A stretch of 64,000 nucleotides of DNA from a bacterium (GTDB lineage Bacteria > Zhuqueibacterota > Zhuqueibacteria > Oceanimicrobiales > Oceanimicrobiaceae): the NCBI GenBank assembly GCA_046757525.1, contig JBHHYI010000001.1, positions 31,073 through 95,072 on the forward strand, read 5' to 3'. Shown one piece after another: positions 1,638 to 58,682 of this stretch. Under the pieces are notes generated by a model, which saw only the letters and a list, made by a program, of their open reading frames with translations, did not search any database and was not told the origin of the DNA. A program made the position numbers and the translations under genes. The number at the start of each line of letters is the position of its first letter. Positions within the stretch are counted from its first letter, which is position 1.

Positions 1638-1751
1638 TCCTCGTGAGAAGCTTTCTTTAGGGAGGGAAAGGCACCATTTGGAAAGCAACCCGCACCAGAA
1701 ATTCGATTTTCCCGTCCCATTTGTACGCTTTAATCTTGACTTTAGCAAAAA

Positions 1752-26855: not shown

Positions 26856-27141
26856 CGACAGCGAGGCGTTTCCTGAAAGCACTGTGCGAGTCATCCCGAG
26901 TAGGTCGCTGCTGTTCAAGTGACCGTATCGAGGGGTGACGGACGTCGATACGAAATTCCCCTTTTTGAAAGGGGGACGGTTTTTGAAGCGTCCAGCGAAA
27001 AAACCAGGGGGATTTTAGGAGGCGTCCTGAAAACCCAAGCTAAGGTGCTGTCGGCCAGACATCCCTCTGATTTTCGCTCTGAACGAGCGAAAATCTGTCT
27101 CCCTTCAAAGGGAGAATGGCCTCGCAAACGAGACGTTTGCG
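26856..27141 (+). repeat. structured intergenic repeat element, copy A (5' module, hairpin-rich middle, conserved 3' hairpin)
   Basis: Positions 26883-26953 are about 90% identical to 53802-53872. The 3' hairpin cgcaaacg-aga-cgtttgcg is shared with copy B. Confidence 0.6.
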
Positions 27142-27158
27142 CGACGGGCAACGGCTTC

Positions 27159-28235
27159 ATGAGTTTAAGAATCATACATATTGCCCCTTTTAACACCTCG
27201 GGTGTCCCCATGGCTCTGGTCAAAGCTGAAAGGAAGCTGGGTCACTACAGCCGCTTGGTCACCCTGGGGCGGGATTTGAGGCATTACGAAGAAGATATTT
27301 GTCTGGATTTACCATTCATGAATTCCTGGGCTACCCGGTTAGCGAAGAGAATCGTTGTCCATCCGGACAGGCTTTCCGTGCACAACAACTACAAAATGCC
27401 TGAAACGATTCCTCCGGTTTGGCAGCCCAACGGGCCGGCTGAAAAAATAGGGATCGCCCTGCGCGAGTGGCTGTGGAAACGCCGAATCGAGCAACTGTTT
27501 GAGTCGTGTGATTTTTGGAACTTCGACATTTACCAGTTGGACGGGGGGCTGGAGTTCTTCAGAAATGGCCAGACCATCAAGAAACTCAAGGCGTTGCACA
27601 AAAAAGTTATTTGCTGCTACACCGGCAGCGATTTGCGTACAAGAGGCGTTTTGCCCAACGTTGATGCCCTAACGGATCTCAATGTTACTCTGGAATTCGA
27701 CCATTTAAAACTGCATGAAAAGATTCACCACGTTTTTTTCCCCTTTGACGTCAGCAGATACGAATTAAGGGCAGAGCCCGAGGGGGCCACGATCAGGATT
27801 GGGCATGCGCCCACAAATCGCGCGGCCAAAGGCAGCGAGGTCATCATCTCTGCTATTCAGGAGCTGCAATCGGAATTCTCAGTCGACTTGGAATTGATCG
27901 AGAATTTGCCACATGAGGAAGCGCTCAAAAGGAAGGCAAGATGTCACATATTTGTGGACCAAATAGGCATGCTGGGCTACGGCATCAACTCACTCGAGGC
28001 ACTGGCTATGGGCATTCCCACGTGTTCCTGTCTGGCCCCCGGTTTTGAAAAGGAATACTCCGATCATCCTTTCATCGTCATCGATGCGTCCAACATCAAA
28101 GCACGGTTGCGAGAATTGGTGCGCAGCAGAGAATTGCGACAGGCAAAGGGTAGCCAGGGCCGGCATTGGGTGCAAACCCACCACGACAGTCTCAAGGTTG
28201 TACAGAAGATTCATGCATTGGCTGGCTTGACTTAG
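27159..28235 (+). CDS. glycosyltransferase (GT-B fold, GT4-like C-terminal domain)
   Basis: Start placed at the ATG at 27159 (MSLRIIHIAPF). C-terminal half resembles the GT4 retaining-GT nucleotide-binding domain. The upstream part of the tracked ORF is the repeat region. Confidence 0.45.
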   Translation: MSLRIIHIAPFNTSGVPMALVKAERKLGHYSRLVTLGRDLRHYEEDICLDLPFMNSWATRLAKRIVVHPDRLSVHNNYKMPETIPPVWQPNGPAEKIGIALREWLWKRRIEQLFESCDFWNFDIYQLDGGLEFFRNGQTIKKLKALHKKVICCYTGSDLRTRGVLPNVDALTDLNVTLEFDHLKLHEKIHHVFFPFDVSRYELRAEPEGATIRIGHAPTNRAAKGSEVIISAIQELQSEFSVDLELIENLPHEEALKRKARCHIFVDQIGMLGYGINSLEALAMGIPTCSCLAPGFEKEYSDHPFIVIDASNIKARLRELVRSRELRQAKGSQGRHWVQTHHDSLKVVQKIHALAGLT

Positions 28236-35381: not shown

Positions 35382-36107
35382 ATGTCTGATTCCGTGAGAG
35401 TAAAGCCTTACATTCTCAAGATCAAGAATTGGAAGATTCGCAACATGATCATGTTGTATCTCGATGCCAGGGAGAAGTTTCTCGCCTACCGCAAGATGAT
35501 TCGCAGCGGAGCTTTCTTGTCCTTTGAGCGAATAGAGGAAATCTGCGATATCTTGTTTGAAATAAAAGAGGACCACCATCTTCTGTTCAAGCGCCTTGTG
35601 GACCCAAAGAAAAAGAAATTTGAAAAGGATCATAAGATCATGCCAGGTGAAGTGGAAACAGAGTTCATGAATAATGTGGGGTTGCTGTTTCACAAGATGA
35701 TGGTTGCTAAGGAATTCAAATACCTGATGGAACGCTATTTGGAGGACAGCGACACCTTCAAGAAAAGCAGCGGTGAATTACAATACCAATTGATGAAGAT
35801 CGACAAGCTCTTTGACGATGGCATCGAGATATTGAAGACCATGATTGCTAAGTATAACGACAACATTTTGTTGCTAACGCTTTTGCTCGAGGATCCAACG
35901 AGAACCAGGAAACACTTTGGACAGAACGTCGCAGAAATCCTCGAGCAATTCGTTGGCGGCCAGGGGCTGGATGAAGTCTATTATTCTGTCGGGAAGTTTT
36001 ATGTTGAGAGTGGGTGGAAAGAGAAAGCCAAAAGCATGTTGAAAGAAGCCTTGAGAAGAAATCCTCAGCATCAGCCTGCCAGGCAACAGCTCTCTTATCT
36101 GATGTAG
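35382..36107 (+). CDS. hypothetical protein (helical, TPR-like C-terminus)
   Basis: Long open frame with coding-like composition. No recognisable catalytic motif. Confidence 0.4.
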   Translation: MSDSVRVKPYILKIKNWKIRNMIMLYLDAREKFLAYRKMIRSGAFLSFERIEEICDILFEIKEDHHLLFKRLVDPKKKKFEKDHKIMPGEVETEFMNNVGLLFHKMMVAKEFKYLMERYLEDSDTFKKSSGELQYQLMKIDKLFDDGIEILKTMIAKYNDNILLLTLLLEDPTRTRKHFGQNVAEILEQFVGGQGLDEVYYSVGKFYVESGWKEKAKSMLKEALRRNPQHQPARQQLSYLM

Positions 36108-38525: not shown

Positions 38526-40328
38526 TTGAACCCCAAGAGCACTTTGCATCCGAGAGAAATCAAAAACGTGTCCATTAACCACGAGGAGCTTTCGATTGAA
38601 AAATTGTTGTCCGTTTCAAGATACTTTGCCAGAGTGGCGCCCTTCGAGGGGCCGAAACGACAAAAAGTGGATGCTGTGCGGAAATATGTGGAAGAGAACT
38701 GGCTCAGTGACTCAGCCCAACCACGCTACGGATTCAACACTGGCATCGGTTCTTTGAAAGGCGTCAAGATATCGCAGGACAACATCGAGAAATTTCAGCA
38801 GCATTACGTCAAGTCCCACAGCGTGGGCGTCGGAGAGCCTCTGGCCGTCGAAATCGTACGAGGGGCCATGCTCATTCAGGCCAACGCCCTGTCCATGGGT
38901 TTTTCCGGCGTCAGAGCTTTGGTCGTCGACAAACTCATCGAGATGCTGAACAAGAAGGTTCATCCGGTGGTGCCGGAGCAAGGCTCTTTGGGAGCCAGCG
39001 GCGACCTGGCACCTCTCACACACATAGCGTCCGTGCTGGTGGGGGAGGACGACGCTGAAATCTGGATCGGCTCCAGGCGCGCGAAAATCAGTGAGCTCAC
39101 AGAGGCTTCCGGTGCCATTTCGTTCGAGCAAGAAGGCCGCACCATTTCCTTTGAACCCATTCGGTTGCAGGGCAAAGAGGCGGTGTCCCTTACCAATTCC
39201 ACGGCAGTCATGCTTGCCGTTGCCGCCCATTTGGTCTTTGATGCCGAGGTGGTGTTGAAAAATGCGGACATCTCTGGTGCCTTGAGCCTCGAGGCCATGA
39301 TGTGCGAAGCCAGCGCCTTTTCCGAGGATTTGCACCGACTGAGAAATCAGGTTGGCCAGATTAACACGGCAAAAAACATCAGCGCTCTGGTTCAGAACAG
39401 CAAGCGCATGACTTCCGAGGCCCGTCTTCAGTACTTTCAGACAACGACCGGGAGGCAGTTGAACGAGAAACTGAAAGACTCTCCCCTGAAGGAATTTGTT
39501 TCAGAAATTAGCCGGTATAAGAAGGAGCATGAGTTTGAGAAGGATCGGATTCAGGATGCCTATTCGCTGCGGTGCATCCCTCAGGTGCATGGTGCTTGCA
39601 AGGACGCTTTCAATTACGTTAAGAACATCGTAAATCTGGAGTTAAGCGCCGTGACGGATAATCCTGTCATTTTCCCAGAAAGGAGGGAGGATGGGTTTGT
39701 GGCCAGAAGCGGCGGCAATTTTCACGGCGAACCGTTAGCCCTGGCCATGGATTTCCTCAGCATTGCGCTATCCGAAATTGGCAGCATTGCTGAAAGGCGC
39801 CTGTTTCGGATGCTGAGTCCCGGCATGAGCTTTGGCCTGCCGAGAAATCTTTCCGGCGGTGAGGTTGGCGTCAATTCGGGCTACATGATTGTTCAGTACA
39901 CAGCCGCGCAACTCGTGGCGGAAAACAAAATCCTGGCTCACCCCGCCAGCGTCGACAGCATTCCGACCTCAGACAACCAGGAAGACCACGTCAGCATGGG
40001 GCTCACCGCGGCCAGAAAATGTCTAAGGATCGCAAAAAATGTTCAGTACCTGATTGCCATGGAGTACCTTTGTGCGGTGCAGGGGTTGCACCTGAGTGCC
40101 CTGGAGGCTTCCGTCAATTTTGAGAAATTTCCTCTGGGCGCTGGAACGACCCTGGCATTTGATTTTCTCAGGAATTGGAAGATAAAATCCGGAAACAGCG
40201 AAAAATACCCGTTCCAGCTCATGCGGGACGATGAATATGTCAAGACAAAAATCGAAATCATGCGAGCGTTGTGTGCCGAAGGCACCATCGTGAATGAAGT
40301 TGAAAAAAGGGTTAAACTTTTAGTGTAA
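38526..40328 (+). CDS. hutH: MIO-dependent aromatic/histidine ammonia-lyase (probable histidase)
   Basis: GSLGASGDLAPLTH MIO-forming Ala-Ser-Gly motif. 600 aa, longer than typical HAL. Confidence 0.75.
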   Translation: MNPKSTLHPREIKNVSINHEELSIEKLLSVSRYFARVAPFEGPKRQKVDAVRKYVEENWLSDSAQPRYGFNTGIGSLKGVKISQDNIEKFQQHYVKSHSVGVGEPLAVEIVRGAMLIQANALSMGFSGVRALVVDKLIEMLNKKVHPVVPEQGSLGASGDLAPLTHIASVLVGEDDAEIWIGSRRAKISELTEASGAISFEQEGRTISFEPIRLQGKEAVSLTNSTAVMLAVAAHLVFDAEVVLKNADISGALSLEAMMCEASAFSEDLHRLRNQVGQINTAKNISALVQNSKRMTSEARLQYFQTTTGRQLNEKLKDSPLKEFVSEISRYKKEHEFEKDRIQDAYSLRCIPQVHGACKDAFNYVKNIVNLELSAVTDNPVIFPERREDGFVARSGGNFHGEPLALAMDFLSIALSEIGSIAERRLFRMLSPGMSFGLPRNLSGGEVGVNSGYMIVQYTAAQLVAENKILAHPASVDSIPTSDNQEDHVSMGLTAARKCLRIAKNVQYLIAMEYLCAVQGLHLSALEASVNFEKFPLGAGTTLAFDFLRNWKIKSGNSEKYPFQLMRDDEYVKTKIEIMRALCAEGTIVNEVEKRVKLLV

Positions 40329-40330
40329 AC

Positions 40331-41731
40331 ATGTCTGCAATAAGGCCCACACTTCCCAAAGGAACCCGAGATTTTTTGCCCGAACAGATGGTTCGGCGGC
40401 AATTTGTTTTTGACACCATAAAAACCATCTTCGAAAAGTACGGTTACGAACCGCTGGAAACGCCCTCCATTGAGAAGCTCGACGTTCTGTCGGGCAAATA
40501 TGGGGATGAGGGCGAGCAGTTGCTGTTTAAAGTGCTGAGACGTGGCACCGGTCTTGAACAGTTGCAGCGCGGTCGGCAGGAATTTGTGGTGAGAGAATAT
40601 TCTCAACTGGTCGAGGAAGCCCTCAGGTACGACCTCACCGTGCCGTTGAGCCGGGTCGTGGCCATGCATCAGAATGAACTCATCTTGCCCTTTAAGCGCT
40701 ACCAAATCCAGCCGGTTTGGCGGGCGGACCGGCCACAGCGGGGCAGGTACCGTGAGTTTTATCAATGCGATATCGACACGGTTGGCACCAAGTCCATGCT
40801 TGCTGATGCGGAAGCCATCGCCGTTGTTCACGAAGTGTTGGCCACGTTGGGGTTCGAAAACTTTTCGATTAGAATCAACAACCGGAAAGTTTTAAACGGG
40901 CTGCTCATTCATGCTGGCATTGCCCCCGAGGCCGGAGACGCCGTTTTTGTTGTCATCGACAAATTGGATAAGATTGGCCTTGCAGGTGTGAAAAGCGAGC
41001 TGGAAAAGCTTGGCCTCTCCGGCAAGCAGGTGGACAAAGTGCTCTCTGTACTGCAGTTGTCCGGGGAAAGCGACTCCGTGTTGTCCGAACTCAAGAGTAC
41101 ATTAAAGGACAGTGAAGCGTTAGCAGAAGGGGTCGATGAGCTTCGGAAAATCGTTACCTACCTGAACGCAATGGGGATTCCTGAATCCCATTACAAAATC
41201 GACCTTTACCTGGTGCGCGGGTTGAGCTACTACACCGGCCCAATCCACGAATCCGTCATCGAGGAGCCGAAAATGGGGAGCCTGACCGGTGGCGGCAGGT
41301 ATGACTGCTTGATCGGGATGTTTCTCGGTCGCGACATTGCCGCCACTGGAACTGCGTTTGGCGTGGAACGAATTATCGACGTGATGACGCAATTGGAGAT
41401 GTTTCCGGAATCGCAAAACAGCACCCAGGTACTGGTGACCCAATTCGACGATTCCACCGTGGAGGCCAGTTTAGGGTACGTGCAATTGCTGCGAGGTGCC
41501 GGAATCGCCGCGGAATTCTATTTTGAAGCTGCCAAAATGAAGAAGCAATTGTCTTACGCCAACAAGAAAGCCATTCCGTATGTGGCGTTCGTCGGCCCTG
41601 ATGAAGTGACGAAAAATCAAGTGACCCTCAAAGACATGCGCAGCGGGGACCAGCAGACGTTGGCGGTAACGTCCTCCCTTGAGATGCTGAAAAAGAAGAT
41701 TTACGGACCTGGAGGGCGAGGTAATCAATAA
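40331..41731 (+). CDS. hisS: histidine--tRNA ligase
   Basis: Class II motifs (TRDFLP, RYREFYQCDID) and a C-terminal anticodon-binding domain. Confidence 0.9.
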   Translation: MSAIRPTLPKGTRDFLPEQMVRRQFVFDTIKTIFEKYGYEPLETPSIEKLDVLSGKYGDEGEQLLFKVLRRGTGLEQLQRGRQEFVVREYSQLVEEALRYDLTVPLSRVVAMHQNELILPFKRYQIQPVWRADRPQRGRYREFYQCDIDTVGTKSMLADAEAIAVVHEVLATLGFENFSIRINNRKVLNGLLIHAGIAPEAGDAVFVVIDKLDKIGLAGVKSELEKLGLSGKQVDKVLSVLQLSGESDSVLSELKSTLKDSEALAEGVDELRKIVTYLNAMGIPESHYKIDLYLVRGLSYYTGPIHESVIEEPKMGSLTGGGRYDCLIGMFLGRDIAATGTAFGVERIIDVMTQLEMFPESQNSTQVLVTQFDDSTVEASLGYVQLLRGAGIAAEFYFEAAKMKKQLSYANKKAIPYVAFVGPDEVTKNQVTLKDMRSGDQQTLAVTSSLEMLKKKIYGPGGRGNQ

Positions 41732-45213: not shown

Positions 45214-45531
45214 GTGAATTTTGTCTCATTATTGTTAATGCTGAGTGGTTCAGGTGGCCAACAAGCAGGCAATCCATTAGCCATGTGGCTACCCATCATC
45301 TTAATATTTGTCATCATGTATTTTTTGATCTTTCGACCGCAAGCCAAAAAGCAGAAGCAACACCAGGCTATGGTCGATTCTCTCAAGAAAGGCGACAAAG
45401 TCATTACAGCGGGAGGTATTTACGGCTCCATTGCGGGGCTTAAGGAAAAGGAGAAAACGATCATCGTCAAAATCGATGACCATGTGAAAATTGAAGTCTC
45501 CCGCAGTTCTATTGCGAAAAAATTGGAGTGA
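45214..45531 (+). CDS. yajC: preprotein translocase subunit YajC
   Basis: Single TM segment followed by FRPQ.KKQK...GDKV..GGI.G. Confidence 0.85.
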   Translation: MNFVSLLLMLSGSGGQQAGNPLAMWLPIILIFVIMYFLIFRPQAKKQKQHQAMVDSLKKGDKVITAGGIYGSIAGLKEKEKTIIVKIDDHVKIEVSRSSIAKKLE

Positions 45532-45535
45532 GTTG

Positions 45536-46087
45536 ATGGCTGTTCTTCCTATTATCAAGTATGGCAATCCAATTCTGCGGGTGCAGACAAGCCCGGTTGC
45601 TGAGATCACTGAGGAACATCGCATTTTGGTTGACGACATGATCGAAACCATGCAAGAAGCTGAAGGCGTTGGTCTCGCGGCACCGCAGGTAGCGGAATCC
45701 ATCGCTGTGTGCATAGTGGATTTGGGGCTGATCGAAGAGGGCGCAGCGCCCAAGGCCTACATCAATCCCGTGATTTTACAGGTCGAAGGTTCTGAGAGCC
45801 TGGAGGAGGGCTGTTTGAGCATCCCGGATATTCGCGAAGAAGTCATTCGGCCGCAGATCATTCAGGTGAAGTATTTGGATCTGTACGGCACCGAACACGA
45901 AGAAGTCTGTGGCGGCATGCTCTCGCGGGTTTTGCAGCATGAAATCGATCACCTCAACGGTGTCTTGTTCATAGACAGGATTAGCTCGATCAAGAGAAAG
46001 CTGCTGGCAAAAAAGTTGAAGAGGATTGCTGAAAAAAGTGGCAGAACCAATGGAGTCGCAGCGCACATGGTCAAAGGCGCTTTATGA
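45536..46087 (+). CDS. def: peptide deformylase
   Basis: GVGLAAPQ, EGCLS and HEIDHLNG motifs. Confidence 0.9.
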   Translation: MAVLPIIKYGNPILRVQTSPVAEITEEHRILVDDMIETMQEAEGVGLAAPQVAESIAVCIVDLGLIEEGAAPKAYINPVILQVEGSESLEEGCLSIPDIREEVIRPQIIQVKYLDLYGTEHEEVCGGMLSRVLQHEIDHLNGVLFIDRISSIKRKLLAKKLKRIAEKSGRTNGVAAHMVKGAL

Positions 46088-47016
46088 AATTGTTATTCAT
46101 GGGAACGCCGGATTTTGCGGTTCCCAGTTTGAGAGCCTTGCAAGCCAGCCAGCATGAAGTTATGAGTGTGGTAACGGCAACCGACAAACCCTGTGGCCGC
46201 GGGCTCAAGATTAAACCTTCACCAGTTAAGCAAGTTGCAAAACAATTAGGCCTGCCCGTTCTGCAGCCCACCGATTTGAAAGATTCTAAGTTCATTGAAG
46301 ACATCCAACGTCTAAACGCTGAGCTTTTTGTAGTTGTTGCGTTCCGAATTTTACCCCCTGAAGTGTTTACACTCCCCCCTCATGGCACCATAAATCTGCA
46401 TGCCTCCTACTTGCCGAAATATCGTGGTGCAGCTCCCATCAATTGGGCCATAATCAACGGTGAAAAGGAGACCGGCGTAACCATTATTCAAATCAATGAA
46501 AAGGTCGATACCGGGGAGATCGTCTTGCAAGAAAAGGTTCCAATAGGGGCCGAAGAAACTGCGGGCGAGCTTCACGACCGTTTGGCCACGATTGGGGCGG
46601 AGTGTTTGCTAAGAGCGGTCGCATTGATTGAGTCCGGCAATGTGGCGACAATCCGACAAACTGAAGAAGGGAGCAGAGCGCCCAAACTCTCCAGGGAATT
46701 GTGCCACATTCAATGGAATCAACCGGCCGAAACGATTTACAATCTGGTGCGTGGGTTGTGTCCGGTGCCAGGCGCGTACACGAATTTACGTGGGAAAATG
46801 ATTAAACTGTATCGCGTGAGGCCCGCGGGCCATGCCCCCACAAGTGCAGCGCCCGGAGAAATCGTTCGCCGCGGCAACAGGCCGGGCACCCTTGCTGTTG
46901 CCACCGGAGCCGGTTTACTCCACATTCAGGAACTCCAGCCCGAGGGCAAACGTAGAATGTCCGCAGAAGACTTTTTGCGGGGGCATCCTTTGAAAGCAGG
47001 GGACCGATTTGAATAA
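46084..47016 (+). CDS. fmt: methionyl-tRNA formyltransferase
   Basis: MKLLFMGTPDFAVPSL N-terminus and formyltransferase core (INLHASYLPKYRGAAPI). Confidence 0.9.
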   Translation: MKLLFMGTPDFAVPSLRALQASQHEVMSVVTATDKPCGRGLKIKPSPVKQVAKQLGLPVLQPTDLKDSKFIEDIQRLNAELFVVVAFRILPPEVFTLPPHGTINLHASYLPKYRGAAPINWAIINGEKETGVTIIQINEKVDTGEIVLQEKVPIGAEETAGELHDRLATIGAECLLRAVALIESGNVATIRQTEEGSRAPKLSRELCHIQWNQPAETIYNLVRGLCPVPGAYTNLRGKMIKLYRVRPAGHAPTSAAPGEIVRRGNRPGTLAVATGAGLLHIQELQPEGKRRMSAEDFLRGHPLKAGDRFE

Positions 47017-48349
47017 GCCAAATTATTCCGTTCGCCACATTTGCGTGAACATACTGGACCGGCTCAACCACAACGGCCACTATGCCGACGAGCTTATCGC
47101 AGAAGCGTTCAAGAGACATTCTTTGCCGCAAGTCGACAGGTCGCTGGTGGTTGAACTCGTAAACGGCACGGTGCGTTGGCAGGGACAACTCGATTGGATT
47201 CTGGCGCGGGGTTTCCGGGGTGACTTTAACCGGTGCGCGAGCAAACTGAGAGCCATTTTGGAGTTGAGTTTGTACCAGATCAGATTTTTGCAAAGAATCC
47301 CCAAATATGCGGCGGTAGACCAGGGCGTGGAGATCGCGAAAGCCGAAGGGGGGAAGTCCTGGGGCAATTTGGTCAACGCGGTTTTGCGGAATTACCTCAG
47401 GCGCGAGAAAACCCTTGAAATGCCTTCTTTTGAAGCAGACGCCACAACAGCATTGGCGGTTCGCCACTCCCATCCGCAATGGATGGTGCAGCGATGGTTA
47501 GATCGTTACGGTTTGGAAGAAACCGAAGAGCTTTGTCGCTTTAACAACCAAAGACCGTGCGTCTGCGTGCGCGTGAATCTGGCCAAAACCTCGCCTGAGC
47601 ACCTACTGCAATATTTTCAAGAAAGGGAGATCGAGGCTCGCCCGTCGATTTATTTTGCCGATTTTATCAAGATTACTCGTCCGGGAGATTTAAACAACTG
47701 CTCAGCGTTTACCAACGGCCAGTTTACCATTCAAGATGAAAGCACGGCCATCGGCAGTCTGTTGTTAGCACCCCAAAAAGGCGAGACCGTTTTAGATTTG
47801 TGCGCGGCGCCTGGAGGCAAGGCGGGCCACTTAGCCCAGTTGCTCGGTGAATCCGGCCGGGTCTTAGCCGTGGATCAGAACTTCAATCGCTTGAGCTTGT
47901 TGCAGGACAATATTGTTAGGTTACAAACAAGACTCATCCGGCCAATCGTGGCCGATGGGCGCCACTTTCAGTGTTCCCCGGTCAACAAAATCCTGTTAGA
48001 CGCTCCTTGTTCTGGCCTGGGCGTTTTGGCCAAACGGGTCGATTTGCGCTGGAGACGAAAACCCAACGATATCGCTAAGGTGAGCCGTTTGCAAAGGTCT
48101 TTGTTGCAAAGCGCCAGTCGACTGGTCAAAAAAGGGGGAGTTTTGGTTTACAACACTTGCACCCTCGAGCCTGAGGAAAATGAAACTGTGGTTGAAGATT
48201 TCCTGGATCGCAATGGGAATTTTAGGTTAGAACCGCTGGCTTTAAGTTGTTTGGAGCCATTCGCGAATTCCCAGGGCTATTTCAGATCCTTACCCCAAAA
48301 GCACAAAATGGACGGAGCTTTTGCGGCAAGATTGTTAAGGATTAACTAG
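47009..48349 (+). CDS. rsmB: 16S rRNA (cytosine967-C5)-methyltransferase RsmB
   Basis: N-terminal NusB-like domain, SAM motif (DLCAAPGGK) and catalytic motifs (DAPCSG; LVYNTCTL). Confidence 0.9.
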   Translation: MNKPNYSVRHICVNILDRLNHNGHYADELIAEAFKRHSLPQVDRSLVVELVNGTVRWQGQLDWILARGFRGDFNRCASKLRAILELSLYQIRFLQRIPKYAAVDQGVEIAKAEGGKSWGNLVNAVLRNYLRREKTLEMPSFEADATTALAVRHSHPQWMVQRWLDRYGLEETEELCRFNNQRPCVCVRVNLAKTSPEHLLQYFQEREIEARPSIYFADFIKITRPGDLNNCSAFTNGQFTIQDESTAIGSLLLAPQKGETVLDLCAAPGGKAGHLAQLLGESGRVLAVDQNFNRLSLLQDNIVRLQTRLIRPIVADGRHFQCSPVNKILLDAPCSGLGVLAKRVDLRWRRKPNDIAKVSRLQRSLLQSASRLVKKGGVLVYNTCTLEPEENETVVEDFLDRNGNFRLEPLALSCLEPFANSQGYFRSLPQKHKMDGAFAARLLRIN

Positions 48350-48503
48350 TGATTGACCGAGACTCCCAAAATGTCATTTCGACGCAGTCCAGCAACTGCC
48401 GGACGGAGGAGAAATCTGGTTACATTGGTGCTTAGCCAGATTTCTCATCAGGCATTCGCCTGATTCGAAATGACAGTCGTTAGATGAGTTTTCGGTCAAT
48501 CAC
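48349..48503. repeat. about 155-bp nested inverted-repeat (MITE/REP-like) element between rsmB and the PASTA gene
   Basis: Outer inverted repeat gtgattgaccga / tcggtcaatcac. Inner inverted repeat tgtcatttcga / tcgaaatgaca. Internal stems gagaaatctgg / ccagatttctc and tcaggc / gcctga. Confidence 0.6.
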
Positions 48504-48535
48504 TAACTTAAAGTATGAATTAAGAGCCAATAATC

Positions 48536-49318
48536 ATGGCCACTCTCAAAGAACGAGCATTGCACCTATTGACTCCCAAGCGAGTAGCGATCCTGGCCTT
48601 GCTCACGGGCGTCTTATTAGGGGTCACTATTCTATTTGACCAGGTCCTCATGCCCTGGTATACGCGGCACGATCAGGCCCTGGAAGTGCCAAACCTGGTG
48701 GGTAAGCGATTCGAAAGCGCCAAAGAGCTTTTGGACGCAGCCGGTTTGGAAATCGTCAAGAAGGGCGAGAAGTATGACTCGGCGTGGCCGTTCGGCTATG
48801 TGGTGGACCAGAACCCACACGCATTGAGGAAGGTCAAGAATGGCCGACGGGTTTATGTGACTCTGAGCCTTGGCGACCGTGAGCTGCAAGTGCCGGACCT
48901 CATGGGACTGTCTGAAACCAACGCTGAGGAACGATTAAAGAGCCTGGGGCTTCGGATCGGGGAACGAGAATACGAATACGTTGCCAACGAACCGTCCGAT
49001 ATCGTCATCGCCCAGTCGTTGCCACCGAACCGAATGGTGAAAACTGGCACCGCCGTTGACATAAAGGTCAGTCTGGGCAAGGCGGCTGGCAGCGCTCGAG
49101 TTCCGTCAATTCTGGGCAAAACCCTGGAGACCGCCAAAAGGGAAATAAGAAAATCGGGGCTGGTTCTGGGTCATGTACAGTTCCGCCTGACCAACGAATT
49201 CTTGCCGAACACAGTCATCTGGCAGTCCCTTACGACGGGCACAAAGGTAACCCGCGGGGACACTTTAGACCTCATCGTGACCACGGTGAGCCAATCAAAG
49301 CGGAGCTTGAAACAATGA
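48536..49318 (+). CDS. membrane-anchored PASTA-domain protein (three PASTA repeats, no kinase or PBP domain)
   Basis: N-terminal TM followed by three repeats of about 65 aa beginning VPNLVG / VPDLMG / VPSILG. Confidence 0.8.
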   Translation: MATLKERALHLLTPKRVAILALLTGVLLGVTILFDQVLMPWYTRHDQALEVPNLVGKRFESAKELLDAAGLEIVKKGEKYDSAWPFGYVVDQNPHALRKVKNGRRVYVTLSLGDRELQVPDLMGLSETNAEERLKSLGLRIGEREYEYVANEPSDIVIAQSLPPNRMVKTGTAVDIKVSLGKAAGSARVPSILGKTLETAKREIRKSGLVLGHVQFRLTNEFLPNTVIWQSLTTGTKVTRGDTLDLIVTTVSQSKRSLKQ

Positions 49319-49974
49319 TCAAGATCGCGCCTTCTATTCTGGCAGCAGACTTCTCGGTGCTAAGAGACCAAATCCAAATCGCCGAAGAAGCGGGAGCCGA
49401 TTGGTTGCATCTGGACGTCATGGACGGCCACTTTGTACCGAACTTAACCTTTGGGCCGTTGCTGGTAGAGGCTGTTAATAGAATCACCGACTTGCCTTTG
49501 GATGTTCATCTAATGATCGAGAATCCCGACGCCTACATCCACCAGTTCCGCGAGGCAGGTGCGGACATCATTTCCGTGCATGCAGAAGCCTGTGTGCATC
49601 TGAACCGGACGCTCAACTTGATCAGAGACGCCGGGGCGCAAGGGGGCGTGGCTCTCAACCCGGCCACACCCATCGGTTTCTTAGATGACGTTCTGGACGA
49701 CACCGACCTGGTGTTAGTCATGACCGTCAATCCGGGATTCGGCGGTCAGTCGTTTATTGCCCATTCCGCCGACAAAATCCAACGTATTGCCCGCAAACTC
49801 GAGCAGGCTGAACTTTCGATTTTCATAGAGGTCGACGGTGGCATCGATAAGATTACCGCGCCACAGGTGGTAGCGGCTGGCGCTAATGTGTTGGTGTCCG
49901 GCTCCGCCATCTTTGCCTCTGAGGATATCTCCCGGGCCCTGAAGGCGATAAGGGCGTCGGTAGCGGGTCTGTAG
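49315..49974 (+). CDS. rpe: ribulose-phosphate 3-epimerase
   Basis: IAPSILAADF, HLDVMDGHFVPN and VMTVNPGFGGQ motifs. Confidence 0.9.
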   Translation: MIKIAPSILAADFSVLRDQIQIAEEAGADWLHLDVMDGHFVPNLTFGPLLVEAVNRITDLPLDVHLMIENPDAYIHQFREAGADIISVHAEACVHLNRTLNLIRDAGAQGGVALNPATPIGFLDDVLDDTDLVLVMTVNPGFGGQSFIAHSADKIQRIARKLEQAELSIFIEVDGGIDKITAPQVVAAGANVLVSGSAIFASEDISRALKAIRASVAGL

Positions 49975-50024: not shown

Positions 50025-50064
50025 TGTCATTTCGAGTCAGGCGGCTGCCTGACTCGAAATGACA
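50025..50064. repeat. perfect 18-bp-stem palindrome sharing the TGTCATTTCGA termini of the 48349-48503 element
   Basis: tgtcatttcgagtcaggc-ggct-gcctgactcgaaatgaca. No U-run follows it. Confidence 0.7.
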
Positions 50065-50321
50065 GTTTGGGGGCTTAAGTTGATGCCGATGGGCGTATGC
50101 CGGATTAATCGGGAATCTTGTGCCTAATTCTCGAATGCATTCCTGCTTACACCATGCAGCAATGACATTCATTGGGCCAATAGATGAAATTCACAATAGT
50201 TTAGTTATTGGATGGCGGATAAACGGGGATGTAATCAAGATTATCTGGGGGTATTACCTTGACGCAGTTACCTACCGTGACGTATTGCCAATCGTATTCT
50301 CAGTCCAGGATAGTTAAGGTG

Positions 50322-54756: not shown

Positions 54757-55224
54757 TTGATTGTGAGATTCTCTAAGAAGGACATCGACAAAATTGGCAA
54801 GGTGTTAGGCGTTCAAGCCAAGCTTTGGGGAAACAATTATCGCTTTATGCTCGAAAACAGAGAGGCCGGCAGAAAGCTTTCCTTGGAAATCTATCCTAAC
54901 ATTCCAATCGGCAAACAGACCGGAAACCTGGTCAGCGTTTACACCCACAACTCCCATTTGCAGCTTCACTTTTGCACCGGATACGTCGTCAGTGAGATGT
55001 TGGGTGAGGTTACTTTTGTAGGCGAGTTTCAAGGACGCCTCTCGGGTCTGATTATCGAAAAAGAGGCGGGCTGTTCTCTCTACGCCAATGTTGATTCAAA
55101 TCTTCTTTCCGGCGATCTCACGAAACTTGGCCCAGAAGTCATGCTTTCCGGCATTGCTTTATCTCTTACCGAAGGCATTCTGCCGGGCGGAGAGGAGGCA
55201 CATTCCGAAGAAAGAGAATCTTAA
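54757..55224 (+). CDS. hypothetical protein
   Basis: 155-aa open frame between csp and the xerD-like gene. No recognisable motif. Confidence 0.35.
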   Translation: MIVRFSKKDIDKIGKVLGVQAKLWGNNYRFMLENREAGRKLSLEIYPNIPIGKQTGNLVSVYTHNSHLQLHFCTGYVVSEMLGEVTFVGEFQGRLSGLIIEKEAGCSLYANVDSNLLSGDLTKLGPEVMLSGIALSLTEGILPGGEEAHSEERES

Positions 55225-55293
55225 CACCCGGCATTGATACTGGTGACGAGATCGCATGGCGTCGATGGCAATCTCTTTTTGAAGAATAATGGG

Positions 55294-56220
55294 ATGTTGA
55301 ATTACTTAGACGAATTCCTGAACTTTCTCCGGGTTGAAAAGAATGCCGCTGCCAACACCGTCCAGTCCTACCAGAATGATCTGAATCGCTATTTGAGTTT
55401 TCTGGCGGATAGGGGCTTTGCCAATTTGGAAGATGTCAAAGCCGCAGATATTCTCTCCTTGATCAATAGCTTGCACCAGTTGGGTTTTGCTTCCGCCAGC
55501 AACGCCAGAAATTTATCCGCCATCCGAATGTTCCACCGTTTTTTGCTTGGAGAAGGCCACGTAAAAGTCGATCCTACCCTGAACATTAGCTTCCCCAAGC
55601 TGTCGAAAAAGCTGCCCGCAGTCCTGACTCAACCGGAAATCGAATCCATTTTGAGCCAACCGGTTCTTTCCACGAAAAAGGGTCTGCGCGACAAGGCGAT
55701 GTTGGAGTTCTTGTACGCTACCGGAACACGGGTTTCGGAGCTGATCGCCACTCGTTGTCAGGATTTGTTTTTTGCCGAGGGATTCATTCGAGTGGTGGGA
55801 AAAGGGTCGAAGGAACGCATCGTCCCCATTGGCGAGCAAGCTATATTCTACACGACCTCCTATTTAACGCAAGTGCGGTGTCACGTAGCCCAGAGAGGTC
55901 TCAGCAAGGATGTGGTGTTCTTGAATTTCCGCGGCAAGCCGCTTTCGAGGATGGGTGTCTGGAAGGTCCTGCGTGCTTATGTCGTCAAGGCGGGCATTAC
56001 GAAAAAAGTTTCGCCGCATACGTTCAGGCACTCGTTTGCTACCCATCTCATAGAAGGGGGAGCTGACCTGCGTGCTGTGCAGGAAATGCTGGGCCATGCG
56101 GATATTTCCACAACGCAAATCTACACGCACCTGGATCGTGAGTACCTGAAAGAGGTGCATCGGCTGTTTCATCCCCTGGAAAAGTATGGCAACAAAGCGA
56201 AGAGGGTGTTACAAACATGA
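55294..56220 (+). CDS. tyrosine site-specific recombinase (XerD-like)
   Basis: R...HxxR...Y catalytic set (HTFRHSFATHL, LGHADISTTQIYTHL). Confidence 0.8.
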   Translation: MLNYLDEFLNFLRVEKNAAANTVQSYQNDLNRYLSFLADRGFANLEDVKAADILSLINSLHQLGFASASNARNLSAIRMFHRFLLGEGHVKVDPTLNISFPKLSKKLPAVLTQPEIESILSQPVLSTKKGLRDKAMLEFLYATGTRVSELIATRCQDLFFAEGFIRVVGKGSKERIVPIGEQAIFYTTSYLTQVRCHVAQRGLSKDVVFLNFRGKPLSRMGVWKVLRAYVVKAGITKKVSPHTFRHSFATHLIEGGADLRAVQEMLGHADISTTQIYTHLDREYLKEVHRLFHPLEKYGNKAKRVLQT

Positions 56221-56241
56221 AGGACAACGATTGTTTTAGCC

Positions 56242-57831
56242 ATGTCGAAAGTCTCTGAGCGCAAAAAAATATTTACTACCGATTCCGGCATTAAAGTCAA
56301 AGCTGTCTACGACGAGGCAGATGTCGCAGACTCCAAGGGTCTGCTGGGCTTTCCTGGAGCGTATCCCTTCACTCGCGGGATTTATTCCAATATGTATCGC
56401 GGCCGATTTTGGAGCATGCGGCAATATGGCGGTTTTGGTACGGCAAAGGAAACCAACCAAAGATTCAAGTATTTGCTGGATAACGGACAAACGGGCCTGT
56501 CGGTCGCCTTTGATCTGCCTACCCAAATGGGTTTCGATTCGGACTCCCCGCTGGCAGAAGGCGAAGTGGGGAAGGCAGGCGTGGCGATCGATAGCCTCAG
56601 GGACATGGAGATTCTGTTCCAGGATATACCGCTGGAGAAAATAACCACGTCCATGACCATCAACGCTACTGCTGCCATTCTTCTGGCCCTTTATGTGGCC
56701 ATCGCCAGGAAGCAGGGTGCAGATTTGAAACGAATCAGCGGCACGATTCAAAATGACATTCTCAAAGAATACATCGCTCGCTCGACTTACATTTATCCGC
56801 CGGAGCCCTCGATGCGAATCGTGACCGACATTTTTGAGTATTGCAAAGACCACCTGCCGCGCTGGAACACGATCTCCATAAGCGGCTACCACATCCGCGA
56901 GGCTGGTGCCAATGCCATCCAGGAGTTGGCGTTTACCTTTGCCAATGCCATCGCCTACATTGAGGCGGCCCTGAAGCGCGGTTTGAATGTGGATGAATTT
57001 GGCGGTCGGTTGTCCTATTTCTTTGCCTGTCATAACAATTTTTTTGAAGAAATTGCCAAATTCCGGGCGGCGCGTCGTATTTATGCAACCATTATGAAGG
57101 AAAGATTCAACGCTGCCAGGCCGAAGACCCTGATGCTGCGGTTCCATACGCAAACAGGTGGGTCCACCTTGACCGCGCAACAACCGGATAACAACATCAT
57201 TCGGGTGGCGTTGCAGGCCCTCGCCGCTGTTTTGGGCGGCACGCAGTCGTTGCACACCAACTCCAAAGACGAAGCGCTGGCGCTCCCGACCGAGGAGGCC
57301 GTACGCATCGCCTTGCGAACCCAGCAAATCATCGCTCATGAATCGGGCGTGGCCGACACCGTCGATCCGCTGGGGGGGAGCTATTTTCTGGAATCCCTGA
57401 CCCAAGAAATCGAGTCCAAAGTGTGGGGATATCTTGACCGAATCCAGAAGTTGGGAGGGGCGGTAAAAGCCATTGAAGAGCACTATTTTCAGGAGGAGAT
57501 CAGCAGAAGCGCCTACAAATATCAGAAAGAGATCGAGGCGAATGATAGAATCATCGTGGGCGTGAATGAATTTGTTCATGAAGAGAAAGAACCTCAATCA
57601 ATTTTGCGCGTCGATCCCTCGGTCCGCAGCGAACAAATAGCTGCCCTGAAAAAATTAAGAGCCGATAGAGATACTGGCAAAGTCGAGCGTTTGCTGGCAG
57701 AATTGAGAACGGCTGCGCAAGGCTCTGAAAATCTCATGCCCAAGATTCTGGCCTGTGTCGAAGGTTACGTAACCCTGGGAGAAATCTCTGACACCTTGCG
57801 AGAAGTCTTCGGCAGCTACAGCGAAAGCTGA
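56242..57831 (+). CDS. methylmalonyl-CoA mutase-family catalytic (TIM-barrel) subunit, no B12-binding domain in this ORF
   Basis: 529 aa matching the MCM large-subunit N-terminal domain ([24 protein letters not shown]). Confidence 0.85.
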
Positions 57832-58682
57832 TGTTTGCGAACAATCACAACCGCTTCCATTCGGTTGCCCATCCGAGCACGAATGAATTTTCCGGTTTCA
57901 AAGAGGTGTTAGCAGCAAATCGCGGGACGCGACGTTTTGGCAAAAGGAGCTTTGTCTTCAACCGGTTAGGCTCCACCAACAGTTATGCAAAGCGATTGGC
58001 CGCCAAGGGTAGCGCGGAAGGTACGCTGGTAATAGCGGAAAAACAGACCCGGGGACGGGGCAGGAGGGGCCGTCGTTGGGAATCGGCACCTGGAAAAGGA
58101 TTGTGGATTTCATTGATTTTGCGTCCGGACCTCGAGGCAGACAAGGCCGGATTGCTTGCCCTTTTGGCGGGCCTTTCCGTTGCCCAGACCGTTGAAACCC
58201 ATCTAAACTTGTCTGCTGAATTAAAATGGCCTAATGATGTGTTGATTCAATCAAAGAAGTTTTGCGGGATTCTGAGCGAAGCTGAAATTTCAGCCCGACA
58301 AAGACTCGCCTGGATTGTGCTCGGAATCGGTCTCAATGTCAATCACTTGCTGGAAGACTTTTCGGACGAAATTCGTCCCAGGGCGACTTCATTGGCCATC
58401 GAATGCGGAAGCCCTGTTAGCCGCAGCGAATTGTTGCTGGCCTTTCTTGGTGTTTTGGAGGAGAACTATCTGAAACTGAAGCAGGGTGGGGCGGCTTACT
58501 TCCTCCAGCAATGGATTAGAAGATGTCCCACTTTCAAGAAGCGAATTTTGCTTCGACAAGATGAGACAGAAATGGAAGGCATCTTTGAGGATTTGGATGC
58601 CGGGGGAAGAATGCTCTTGCGTCTGGCTAATGGTGAAATCAGGCGGATTTCGGCTGGTGAAGTGATAATCCAACCCGAATAA
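57831..58682 (+). CDS. birA: biotin--[acetyl-CoA-carboxylase] ligase
   Basis: GRGRRGRRW biotin-binding motif. ATG overlaps the mutase stop (TGATG). Confidence 0.8.
   Translation: MFANNHNRFHSVAHPSTNEFSGFKEVLAANRGTRRFGKRSFVFNRLGSTNSYAKRLAAKGSAEGTLVIAEKQTRGRGRRGRRWESAPGKGLWISLILRPDLEADKAGLLALLAGLSVAQTVETHLNLSAELKWPNDVLIQSKKFCGILSEAEISARQRLAWIVLGIGLNVNHLLEDFSDEIRPRATSLAIECGSPVSRSELLLAFLGVLEENYLKLKQGGAAYFLQQWIRRCPTFKKRILLRQDETEMEGIFEDLDAGGRMLLRLANGEIRRISAGEVIIQPE

What the first reader, a model, noticed from the sequence alone, without database searches (positions are those of the whole stretch)
48536..49318. Kinase-less PASTA sensor occupying the PrkC slot of the def-fmt-rsmB-(prpC-prkC)-rpe neighbourhood
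The order def-fmt-rsmB ... rpe is the classic Firmicute/Actinobacterial arrangement. There, the serine/threonine kinase PrkC (a TM segment plus PASTA repeats) and the phosphatase PrpC lie between rsmB and rpe. Here, in an organism with an outer membrane (Lpt, FadL-like, TatC), that position holds a protein with only the TM segment and three PASTA repeats. It has no kinase, PBP or phosphatase domain. A free-standing extracytoplasmic PASTA (muropeptide-binding) module retained in conserved synteny is unusual. It may signal through a partner encoded elsewhere.
Basis: partly seen in the sequence, partly recalled or inferred. Interest (0 to 1): 0.5.

Follow-up and report, generated by a model that had tools for sequence, protein, structure and literature searches.

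The report
Kinase-less membrane-anchored PASTA protein family
A small inner-membrane protein exposes three peptidoglycan-binding PASTA repeats to the periplasm and has no kinase or enzyme domain; it is a real, conserved but uncharacterised family in outer-membrane-bearing KSB1, Calditrichia and Ignavibacteria, and in KSB1 it sits where Firmicutes encode their PASTA kinase.

Summary
ORF 48536-49318 (+) encodes 260 aa: a 16-residue basic N-tail, one TM helix and three PASTA repeats (Pfam E=1e-39; AF2 pLDDT 91). The best structural matches are the ectodomains of S. aureus PrkC/Stk1 and M. tuberculosis PknB. No kinase, PP2C or transpeptidase domain occurs in the protein. No kinase-like coding was found in any frame of the window or of 26 related loci (403 kb).

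It is not a local truncation. More than 300 sequence clusters (90% identity) from KSB1, Calditrichia and Ignavibacteria share the architecture (158-345 aa, PASTA only). They also share a family-specific periplasmic juxtamembrane motif, M-P-x-Y-x-x-H.

Gene order def-fmt-rsmB-PASTA-rpe is conserved in KSB1. PASTA->rpe holds in 23 of 25 informative loci across the three lineages. Firmicutes have fmt-sunL-phosphatase-PASTA kinase-cpgA-rpe, so the "PrkC slot" idea is supported for Firmicutes. It is not supported for Actinobacteria, where the kinase is linked to pstP-rodA-pbpA.

The "sensor with a remote partner" function is untested. Best guess: a non-enzymatic adaptor that binds peptidoglycan or lipid II and acts through its juxtamembrane helix. 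Databases already label it "PASTA domain-containing protein", so this is an uncharacterised variant of a known kind and of moderate interest.

The parts
48536..49318 (+). Gene for the 260-aa kinase-less PASTA protein (signal-anchor TM plus three PASTA repeats)
   Evidence: ORF. Pfam PASTA x3, E=1e-39. A 100% identical NCBI protein is named 'PASTA domain-containing protein'. AF2 pLDDT 91.3. Foldseek best hit is the PrkC ectodomain 3py9, E=3e-17.
48536..48583 (+). Residues 1-16: short basic cytoplasmic tail (MATLKERALHLLTPKR), variable across the family
   Evidence: 4 K/R against 1 D/E. Column conservation 0.10-0.33. The tail is reduced to about 5 residues in Ignavibacteria.
48584..48643 (+). 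Residues 17-36: single transmembrane segment (signal anchor)
   Evidence: Highest Kyte-Doolittle 19-mer windows start at residues 16-20. Part of the continuous helix 14-43 in the model. Aligns with the TM of the true PASTA kinase P0104, residues 317-340.
48644..48679 (+). Residues 37-48: periplasmic juxtamembrane motif V-L-M-P-W-Y-T-R-H, the family signature
   Evidence: M39, P40, Y42 and H45 are at least 90% conserved across 37 KSB1 and 86 Ignavibacteria sequences; region conservation is 0.76-0.88. Also present in Caldithrix. Absent from the PASTA kinases P0104 and P0146.
48680..48874 (+). Residues 49-113: PASTA repeat 1 (membrane-proximal, the most conserved repeat)
   Evidence: Best Pfam stretch is 50-111. 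Conservation 0.74-0.86, higher than repeats 2 and 3. Secondary structure H59-68, E72-79, E88-93, E105-111.
48881..49078 (+). Residues 116-181: PASTA repeat 2
   Evidence: Pfam stretch. Model elements E116-118, H127-136, E140-147, E156-160, E173-179.
49094..49288 (+). Residues 187-251: PASTA repeat 3
   Evidence: Pfam stretch. Model elements E186-188, H197-207, E210-218, E226-230, E243-250.
49315..49974 (+). rpe (ribulose-phosphate 3-epimerase), overlapping the PASTA gene by 4 nt, which suggests translational coupling; the family's most constant neighbour
   Evidence: Pfam Ribul_P_3_epim, E=3.8e-82. ATGA overlap at 49315-49318. rpe lies directly downstream in 23 of 25 informative distinct loci; the exceptions are L007 and L011.
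45491..48349 (+). def-fmt-rsmB, the upstream genes of the conserved KSB1 cluster
   Evidence: Pfam hits. The order radA-tgt-yajC-def-fmt-rsmB-PASTA is found in 19 of 20 genome loci and in L025 and L026, where rsmB and PASTA overlap by 4 nt.
48347..48505 (.). Genome-specific ~160-nt branched palindromic element in the rsmB-PASTA spacer, starting at the rsmB stop codon
   Evidence: Nested inverted repeats. MFE -82.9 kcal/mol, z=-9.4. No Rfam match. Not present in related loci.
50025..50066 (.). Related perfect 17-bp-stem palindrome downstream of rpe, sharing the core GTCATTTCGA
   Evidence: Sequence. blastn similarity to the upstream element. The core 10-mer occurs 5 times against 0.18 expected.

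Best explanation
The gene encodes a bitopic inner-membrane protein. It has a very short cytoplasmic tail, one TM helix and a periplasmic rod of three PASTA repeats. It is homologous to, and colinear with, the TM-plus-ectodomain part of PrkC/Stk1/PknB-type PASTA kinases, but it has no catalytic domain.

It most likely acts without enzymatic activity. The PASTA repeats would bind peptidoglycan-related material (uncross-linked stem peptides, muropeptides or lipid II) and so place the protein at sites of wall synthesis. The invariant juxtamembrane helix (M-P-x-Y-x-x-H) together with the highly conserved PASTA1 would contact a membrane partner, such as a wall synthase, a hydrolase regulator or a sensor kinase.

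The gene is expressed with rpe as part of an old housekeeping cluster (def-fmt-rsmB-PASTA-rpe). That cluster corresponds to the Firmicute fmt-rsmB-phosphatase-PASTA kinase-cpgA-rpe cluster.

Shown here: architecture, fold, topology prediction, absence of a kinase, family conservation and synteny. Inferred: ligand, partner and physiological role.
For: - Domain and fold: PASTA x3. High-confidence model. Kinase-type PASTA ectodomains are the best structural matches (3py9 E=3e-17, 5e12, 5e10 with TMt 0.75), ahead of PBP-type PASTA. Sequence matches in the PDB are to kinases only.
- Colinearity with a genuine PASTA kinase, TM included: query 14-249 against P0104 317-556, 28% identity; NF033483 model positions 335-562.
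- Functional constraint: about 300 or more clusters at 90% identity, all intact and PASTA-only, at 33-65% identity across three lineages. Invariant M39, P40, Y42 and H45, and PASTA1 more conserved than PASTA2 and PASTA3.
- No cytoplasmic domain is possible, since the tail is 5-16 aa.
- Operon embedding: 4-nt overlaps with rpe or rsmB and conserved synteny.
- Firmicute counterpart cluster (PMC8136486; PMC6449344).
- A PASTA ectodomain expressed alone is biologically active in mycobacteria (PMC4632501, abstract).
Against: - There is no experimental or structural evidence here for any ligand. PASTA domains differ in whether they bind peptidoglycan or beta-lactams at all (PMC6273383).
- No partner gene is co-conserved: rpe is the only constant neighbour, and it is a cytoplasmic sugar-phosphate enzyme.
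- In characterised kinases the membrane-distal PASTA is the specialised unit (own knowledge of the StkP, PknB and PrkC literature). Here the proximal repeat is the most conserved, so the mode of action may differ.
- Signal-anchor versus cleaved signal peptide was not tested with a dedicated predictor.
- The synteny could be a frozen accident with no functional meaning.
Confidence: 0.55

Rival explanations
1. Co-sensor for a separately encoded kinase. The PASTA protein binds muropeptides in the periplasm and passes the signal through TM or juxtamembrane contacts to a Hanks-type or histidine kinase encoded elsewhere. It would be a PASTA kinase split into two polypeptides.
For: The module is homologous and colinear with the sensing half of PASTA kinases. 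The invariant juxtamembrane motif could be a docking surface. Sigma-54 response regulators and other signalling genes occur in these genomes, though they are not linked to the gene.
Against: No kinase or PP2C lies within 7-8 kb of the gene (less where a contig ends) in any of the 26 loci searched with kinase probes (L001-L026), or anywhere in the 64-kb window. No signalling gene is co-conserved across lineages. The whole genome could not be searched, so presence of kinases elsewhere is unknown. This model overlaps the best explanation and differs only in the nature of the partner.
Confidence: 0.2
2. FtsN-like activator or tether of the wall-synthesis machinery. The short tail, TM, conserved periplasmic juxtamembrane peptide and peptidoglycan-binding domain copy the logic of the proteobacterial SPOR proteins (FtsN, DedD, DamX). 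PASTA repeats would replace SPOR for targeting, and the M-P-x-Y-x-x-H peptide would activate or scaffold a SEDS-bPBP complex.
For: The architecture and conservation pattern fit: the juxtamembrane region and PASTA1 are the most conserved, while the cytoplasmic tail is minimal and variable. PASTA domains of PBP2x are required for mid-cell localisation (title of ref. 118 cited in PMC6273383). The extended two-repeat geometry resembles PknB PASTA1-2 (5e10, rmsd 3.3 A).
Against: The analogy rests on my own knowledge of FtsN and has no test here. The gene is not in a dcw or mre cluster. No sequence similarity to FtsN was examined or is expected.
Confidence: 0.15
3. Decaying remnant or annotation artefact: a PrkC gene that lost its 5' half recently, or whose kinase part lies in a mis-called neighbouring ORF.
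For: JGI and one NCBI record label some family members 'serine/threonine protein kinase'. Its position matches that of prkC in Firmicutes.
Against: Every family member listed (158-345 aa) has only PF03793. There is no kinase-like coding in six frames of 403 kb. In L025 and L026 rsmB overlaps the PASTA start by 4 nt, so nothing can lie between them. Strong conservation with invariant family-specific residues across three lineages is incompatible with decay. The kinase labels are transfer errors.
Confidence: 0.02
4. Soluble periplasmic peptidoglycan-binding or beta-lactam-binding protein. The N-terminal hydrophobic segment is a cleaved signal peptide, and the three PASTA repeats act free in the periplasm, for example as a buffer or decoy for muropeptides or beta-lactams.
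For: Many KSB1 members have A-L-A just before V-P-N at the start of PASTA1, a possible signal-peptidase motif (consensus). JGI/COG naming is 'beta-lactam-binding protein with PASTA domain'. The distant Coprothermobacter homologue P0041 has a typical cleavable signal peptide.
Against: The A-x-A is not conserved: it is A-L-E in the window protein and L-V-K in Ignavibacteria. It also lies about 15 residues beyond the hydrophobic core. The most conserved non-PASTA residues (M-P-x-Y-x-x-H) would be discarded with the signal peptide. The model predicts one continuous helix over residues 14-43.
Confidence: 0.08

Closest known systems
PASTA Ser/Thr kinases of Firmicutes (PrkC of B. subtilis, Stk1/PknB of S. 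aureus, StkP of S. pneumoniae; NCBIfam NF033483)
   Same: A single TM followed by tandem extracytoplasmic PASTA repeats. These give the best sequence and structure matches. Alignment is colinear, TM included. The operon neighbourhood is the same: fmt-rsmB upstream and rpe downstream.
   Different: No Hanks kinase domain and no long cytoplasmic juxtamembrane region. No adjacent PP2C phosphatase, rlmN or cpgA/rsgA. The host is an LPS-bearing diderm, so the repeats are periplasmic. It carries a family-specific M-P-x-Y-x-x-H motif that the kinases examined lack. It scores 126.5 bits against the 450-bit family cut-off.
PknB of Actinobacteria (M. tuberculosis)
   Same: Extended array of PASTA repeats after a TM. 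PASTA1-2 superpose at rmsd 3.3 A, TMt 0.75 (5e10).
   Different: PknB has a kinase domain and four repeats. Its gene is linked to pstP-rodA-pbpA, not to rsmB or rpe (PMC6554272).
PASTA-bearing class B penicillin-binding proteins (PBP2x, S. aureus PBP1, SpoVD)
   Same: The same domain fold, and a role of PASTA in targeting to sites of wall synthesis.
   Different: In PBPs the PASTA pair is C-terminal to a transpeptidase and packs compactly. Similarity is much weaker (Foldseek E 1e-7 to 1e-4; TIGR02214 21 bits against 688). There is no transpeptidase here.
Uncharacterised PASTA-only proteins of other diderms (e.g. Treponema pallidum TP0307; generic 'PASTA domain-containing protein' or 'beta-lactam-binding protein with PASTA domain' annotations)
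   Same: A kinase-less, enzyme-less PASTA protein in a bacterium with an outer membrane, known only from annotation (PMC4403809; names).
   Different: The KSB1/Calditrichia/Ignavibacteria family is defined by its juxtamembrane motif and its link to rpe.
SPOR-domain division proteins FtsN, DedD and DamX (functional analogy only)
   Same: Short cytoplasmic tail, one TM, a conserved periplasmic juxtamembrane segment and a C-terminal peptidoglycan-binding module.
   Different: No homology. SPOR, not PASTA. The analogy comes from my own knowledge and was not tested.

Membership tests
PASTA domain (Pfam PF03793) | Sequence match above the Pfam gathering score | tested here: met
   134.8 bits against a 23.2-bit cut-off, E=1e-39, three stretches.
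PASTA domain (Pfam PF03793) | Small alpha/beta fold (one helix packed on a three-stranded sheet), repeated in tandem | tested here: met
   AF2 model with pLDDT 91.3 and three helix-plus-strand units. Single PASTA domains superpose at rmsd 1.5-1.9 A (3ouv, 5e0y, 2mgv).
PASTA domain (Pfam PF03793) | Extracytoplasmic location | tested here: inconclusive
   Predicted only: a basic N-tail, one hydrophobic segment, and the repeats C-terminal to it. No dedicated topology or signal-peptide predictor was available.
PASTA domain (Pfam PF03793) | Binding of peptidoglycan fragments, lipid II or beta-lactams | not testable with these tools
   Needs biochemistry. The literature notes that some PASTA domains do not bind (PMC6273383).
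PASTA Ser/Thr kinase (PrkC/Stk1/PknB; NCBIfam NF033483) | N-terminal Hanks-type kinase domain | tested here: not met
   No Pkinase hit in the protein, the window or six-frame searches of 403 kb. Only 16 residues precede the TM.
PASTA Ser/Thr kinase (PrkC/Stk1/PknB; NCBIfam NF033483) | Whole-protein score above the curated cut-off | tested here: not met
   126.5 bits against 450; only model positions 335-562 of 563 are matched.
PASTA Ser/Thr kinase (PrkC/Stk1/PknB; NCBIfam NF033483) | Single TM followed by tandem PASTA repeats | tested here: met
   Colinear with P0104 residues 317-556.
PASTA Ser/Thr kinase (PrkC/Stk1/PknB; NCBIfam NF033483) | Adjacent cognate PP2C phosphatase gene | tested here: not met
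   No PP2C family hit among 45 large ORFs of the window. The gene tables of L021-L029 show none.
PASTA Ser/Thr kinase (PrkC/Stk1/PknB; NCBIfam NF033483) | Firmicute-type neighbourhood (fmt-rsmB upstream, rpe downstream) | tested here: met
   Window and 21 KSB1-type loci compared with the published Firmicute order. rlmN and cpgA are absent.
PASTA-bearing class B PBP (PBP2x/SpoVD; TIGR02214) | Transpeptidase and pedestal domains N-terminal to the PASTA pair | tested here: not met
   No transpeptidase hit. TIGR02214 scores 21 bits against a 688-bit cut-off, over the last 60 model positions only.
Kinase-less TM-PASTA3 family of KSB1/Calditrichia/Ignavibacteria (defined here) | 158-345 aa; short tail, TM, M-P-x-Y-x-x-H juxtamembrane motif and three PASTA repeats, with no other domain | tested here: met
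   Window protein has M39, P40, Y42 and H45. All listed homologues are PF03793-only.
Kinase-less TM-PASTA3 family of KSB1/Calditrichia/Ignavibacteria (defined here) | rpe immediately downstream | tested here: met
   4-nt overlap in the window. 23 of 25 informative distinct loci.

The most novel reading that the evidence does not exclude
The family is an ancient kinase-independent form of the PASTA receptor. It would be either the pre-fusion ancestor or a stable kinase-less descendant of the PrkC-type gene in the def-fmt-rsmB-...-rpe cluster of the common ancestor of Firmicutes and the FCB group. In the diderm periplasm it would work like FtsN: the PASTA repeats read the state of nascent peptidoglycan or lipid II, and the invariant M-P-x-Y-x-x-H juxtamembrane peptide directly switches a SEDS-bPBP synthase or another membrane partner on or off. 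If so, PASTA signalling does not intrinsically need phosphorylation, and PASTA is not a Gram-positive invention.
Probability: 0.15. Interest if true: 0.7.

Novelty: new variant of a known kind. Interest (0 to 1): 0.4.

Why it matters
PASTA kinases are treated as a hallmark of Gram-positive bacteria and as antibiotic targets. Reviews state that PASTA is restricted to Firmicutes and Actinobacteria (PMC6273383; PMC1262709).

Here a large, strongly conserved family in three outer-membrane-bearing lineages carries the sensing half alone. In KSB1 it sits in the same operon slot as Firmicute prkC. Three things follow.

1. The PASTA module is older or more widely spread than the kinase fusion.
2. The family is a natural test case for kinase-independent PASTA functions, which have only been glimpsed by truncation or overexpression in Gram-positives (e.g. 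PMC4632501).
3. The juxtamembrane motif M-P-x-Y-x-x-H is a specific, mutable handle for finding the partner.

It also flags a recurrent annotation error, since short PASTA-only proteins are labelled 'serine/threonine protein kinase'. The limits are clear: the domain assignment is already in the databases, no function is shown, and the hosts are mostly uncultured.

Tried and rejected
1. The exhaustive profile search of 1.84 billion representatives returned 41,773 PASTA clusters, but the top 150 were giant multi-PASTA proteins whose repeats sum to high scores. It was useless for orthology. Its only useful yield was two genuine kinases (P0104, P0146) for comparison.
2. A repeat-register test (per-repeat HMMs R1-R3 against the repeats of P0104 and P0146) gave no preference of PASTA1 for kinase PASTA1 and so on. 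It was inconclusive, so no repeat-level orthology with kinases is claimed.
3. Direction of evolution (kinase lost versus never fused) could not be resolved.
5. The rsmB-PASTA spacer hairpin was tested as a known RNA (Rfam, no hit), as a conserved leader (absent from all related loci) and as an intrinsic terminator (none found). It was rejected as part of the conserved system and kept as a side observation.
6. Literature searches for kinase-less, stand-alone or periplasmic PASTA proteins found no characterisation, only the T. pallidum annotation note.
7. A hidden kinase in a neighbouring or mis-called ORF is rejected.
8. A universal PASTA->rpe link is rejected as absolute, because L007 and L011 lack it.
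9. Only 64 kb of its 187-kb contig, and nothing of the rest of the genome, is accessible.
Full report
**1. The observation**

The ORF listing finds an ORF at exactly 48536-49318 on the + strand, encoding 260 aa. Pfam assigns three PASTA repeats: PF03793, 134.8 bits against a 23.2-bit cut-off, E=1e-39. The NCBIfam model for PASTA kinases (NF033483) matches only with its positions 335-562 of 563, the transmembrane and extracellular part. The score is 126.5 bits against a 450-bit family cut-off. The SpoVD/PBP model matches only marginally.

PDB sequence matches are all PASTA ectodomains of Ser/Thr kinases: S. aureus 3py9 at E=3.6e-18 and M. tuberculosis PknB.

Residues 1-16 are basic (4 K/R, 1 D/E). 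The strongest hydrophobic windows start at residues 16-20. The protein contains no cysteine, so it cannot be a lipoprotein (sequence).

An AlphaFold2 model built on the family alignment is confident, with mean pLDDT 91.3. It shows one helix over residues 14-43 and then three helix-plus-sheet units. Foldseek ranks the whole ectodomain of S. aureus PrkC first (E=3e-17), followed by PknB PASTA fragments (5e10: TMt 0.75, rmsd 3.3 A). PBP1 and PBP2x PASTA pairs score far lower.

The observed architecture of TM plus three PASTA repeats and nothing else is therefore correct.

**2. No hidden kinase; diderm host**

The neighbours are def, fmt, rsmB (ending at 48349) and rpe (starting at 49315), all with strong Pfam hits. 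The PASTA stop codon and the rpe start codon overlap in ATGA. The 186-nt rsmB-PASTA spacer is filled by a hairpin element, which leaves no room for a 270-aa kinase domain.

Pfam scans of 45 large ORFs of the window found no Pkinase and no PP2C. I then used the kinase domains of two genuine PASTA kinases (P0104, P0146) as probes. tblastn and phmmer against all six frames of the window plus 26 related loci (403 kb) gave nothing better than E of about 0.4.

The window encodes LptC, LptA, LptB, RpoN, TatC and a GT9 heptosyltransferase. The host therefore has LPS and an outer membrane, and the PASTA repeats are predicted to be periplasmic.

**3. It is a family, not an accident**

The identical protein is on record at NCBI as 'MAG: PASTA domain-containing protein [bacterium]' on a 187-kb contig. 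Three searches give the extent of the family.

- A single-sequence search found 41 relatives, 157-330 aa, all PF03793-only. One is labelled candidate division KSB1.
- A profile search found 430 hits at E<=1e-10. The best 120 are all PASTA-only and 206-344 aa. They extend to Ignavibacteria and 'Chlorobi bacterium OLB5' at 33-38% identity.
- A search from the Caldithrix copy found 188 more. The best 120 are again PASTA-only, 158-292 aa (most 250-290 aa), and mostly Calditrichia.

Several members are mislabelled 'serine/threonine protein kinase' or '(eukaryotic-like) serine/threonine-protein kinase' although they are too short and carry only PASTA.

The alignments show four features.

- The cytoplasmic tail is variable and shrinks to about 5 residues in Ignavibacteria.
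- The periplasmic juxtamembrane segment is highly conserved, with M39, P40, Y42 and H45 at least 90% conserved across 37 KSB1 and 86 Ignavibacteria sequences. It is also present in Caldithrix.
- PASTA1 is more conserved than PASTA2 and PASTA3.
- Ignavibacterial members carry an extra K/D/E-rich tail of about 80 aa ending in D-G-T-K-F.

The two true kinases align colinearly, TM included (query 14-249 against P0104 317-556, 28% identity). They lack the M-P-W-Y-T-K-H motif, so the motif is specific to the kinase-less family.

**4. Synteny**

tblastn of the window's proteins against 20 genome loci shows radA-tgt-yajC-def-fmt-rsmB-PASTA-rpe in the KSB1-type loci. 19 of 20 have rsmB directly upstream.

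Two more divergent members (42-44% identity) have rsmB-PASTA-rpe, with a 4-nt rsmB/PASTA overlap in both and, in L026, a PASTA/rpe overlap as well. Calditrichia have dnaE-dtd-PASTA-rpe. Ignavibacteria have a variable upstream gene, then PASTA-rpe-yjeF-vanZ-tgt-yajC.

Counting distinct loci with enough downstream sequence, 23 of 25 have rpe immediately after the PASTA gene. The exceptions are L007 and L011. There the PASTA gene is followed by a ~150-aa hypothetical protein, xerD and birA. Those same genes lie at 54757-58682 in the window.

**5. Comparison with the 'PrkC slot'**

Published work states that prpC-prkC-cpgA is conserved in Firmicutes, with rpe and thiN as neighbours (PMC6449344). 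It also states that fmt and sunL (= rsmB) are part of the highly conserved stkP gene cluster (PMC8136486). The KSB1 order def-fmt-rsmB-PASTA-rpe therefore matches the Firmicute order, with the phosphatase, the kinase domain, rlmN and cpgA missing.

In Actinobacteria the PASTA kinase is linked to pstP-rodA-pbpA instead (PMC6554272).

The shared flanks, together with the colinear TM-PASTA module, make common descent of the slot plausible. Whether the kinase was lost or never fused could not be decided.

**6. Mechanism**

Shown: a membrane-anchored, enzyme-less periplasmic array of three kinase-type PASTA repeats. It is under strong purifying constraint, especially at the juxtamembrane helix and PASTA1, and it is embedded in a tightly packed housekeeping operon.

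Inferred: the repeats bind peptidoglycan-derived material, as PASTA repeats of kinases and PBPs are reported to do (PMC6448482; PMC6273383). Because the cytoplasmic tail is only 5-16 residues, any output must pass through the TM or juxtamembrane helix to a membrane partner, or be purely periplasmic.

I rank the models as follows.

- A non-enzymatic targeting or adaptor role is most likely (0.55).
- A cleaved soluble protein is unlikely (0.08). The possible A-x-A site is not conserved, and cleavage would discard the most conserved motif.
- A decaying remnant or mis-annotation is refuted (0.02).

**7. Known or new**

The literature I could search treats PASTA as Gram-positive: 'restricted to firmicutes and Actinobacteria' (PMC6273383) and 'selective conservation ... 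in Gram-positive bacteria' (PMC1262709). A 2025 kinome atlas discusses only the fused form.

The only mention found of a kinase-less PASTA protein in a diderm is an annotation note on T. pallidum TP0307 (PMC4403809). Six literature searches found no characterisation.

Against that, sequence databases already label these proteins correctly at the domain level. I therefore class it as a new, uncharacterised variant of a known kind, with moderate interest (0.4). The domain call is ordinary. What is new is the family definition, the juxtamembrane motif, the distribution across diderm phyla and the shared operon slot with Firmicute prkC.

**8. Side observations**

In this genome the PASTA-rpe pair is bracketed by two related palindromic elements.

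- The first is a ~160-nt branched hairpin that starts at the rsmB stop codon (48347-48505; MFE -82.9 kcal/mol, z=-9.4).
- The second is a perfect 17-bp-stem palindrome after rpe (50025-50066).
- Both share the core GTCATTTCGA, which occurs 5 times against 0.18 expected.

The elements match no Rfam family and are absent from related loci.

Noticed in passing
window 48347-48505 and 50025-50066: Two related palindromic elements bracket the PASTA-rpe pair. One is a ~160-nt branched hairpin starting at the rsmB stop codon (MFE -82.9 kcal/mol, z=-9.4). The other is a perfect 17-bp-stem palindrome after rpe. They share the core GTCATTTCGA/TCGAAATGAC (5 hits against 0.18 expected). They have no Rfam match and no T-run, and they are absent from 26 related loci, so they may be REP/MITE-like or operon-bracketing RNA hairpins specific to this genome.
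   Followed up: partly
P0195-P0278 (Ignavibacteria homologues); e.g. L021 8001-8996: Ignavibacterial family members carry an additional ~80-aa Lys/Asp/Glu-rich low-complexity C-terminal tail ending in a conserved D-G-T-K-F. Their cytoplasmic tail is only about 5 residues (MAFWKK).
   Followed up: no
P0014, P0033, P0193, P0206, P0215, P0225, P0284 and others: Recurrent annotation error: PASTA-only proteins of 206-340 aa are named 'serine/threonine-protein kinase' or 'protein kinase' by JGI, and in one NCBI record (Chlorobi bacterium OLB5), although they have no kinase domain.
   Followed up: partly
L007 3968-5700 and L011 8769-11400, compared with window 54757-58682: In two KSB1 loci the PASTA gene is followed directly by a ~150-aa hypothetical protein, xerD and birA. 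In the window, rpe plus a convergent argH-argG-aldo/keto reductase block and a methylmalonyl-CoA mutase gene lie between or among those genes. This suggests an insertion or rearrangement next to a tyrosine recombinase gene.
   Followed up: partly
window 25626-26642: A FemAB-family / GNAT (Acetyltransf_6) protein sits next to ornithine carbamoyltransferase in an LPS diderm. FemAB enzymes normally build peptidoglycan interpeptide bridges in Gram-positives, so this may bear on the wall chemistry the PASTA protein would see.
   Followed up: no
window 19630-21042: The LptB-like ABC ATPase ORF is 470 aa, with the ABC domain only at residues 248-393. Either the true start is far downstream of the first possible start codon, or there is an unusual ~240-aa N-terminal extension. 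It follows LptC (17980-18567) and an LptA/OstA-like gene (18551-19633), and it precedes rpoN.
   Followed up: no
window 6-3011 and 38526-41731: Histidine-utilisation genes are split across the window: urocanase and an amidohydrolase (imidazolonepropionase-like) at the start, and histidine ammonia-lyase next to hisS about 36 kb away.
   Followed up: no
L021-L024 about 11700-12060: In Ignavibacteria a VanZ-like membrane protein gene (a family associated with glycopeptide resistance) lies three genes downstream of the PASTA gene (PASTA-rpe-yjeF-vanZ-tgt-yajC). This could be a further cell-envelope link in that lineage only.
   Followed up: no
window 4219-5418, 26919-28235, 35382-36107, 54757-55224: Four sizeable ORFs (399, 438, 241 and 155 aa) have no Pfam match at E<=1e-5.
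   Followed up: no
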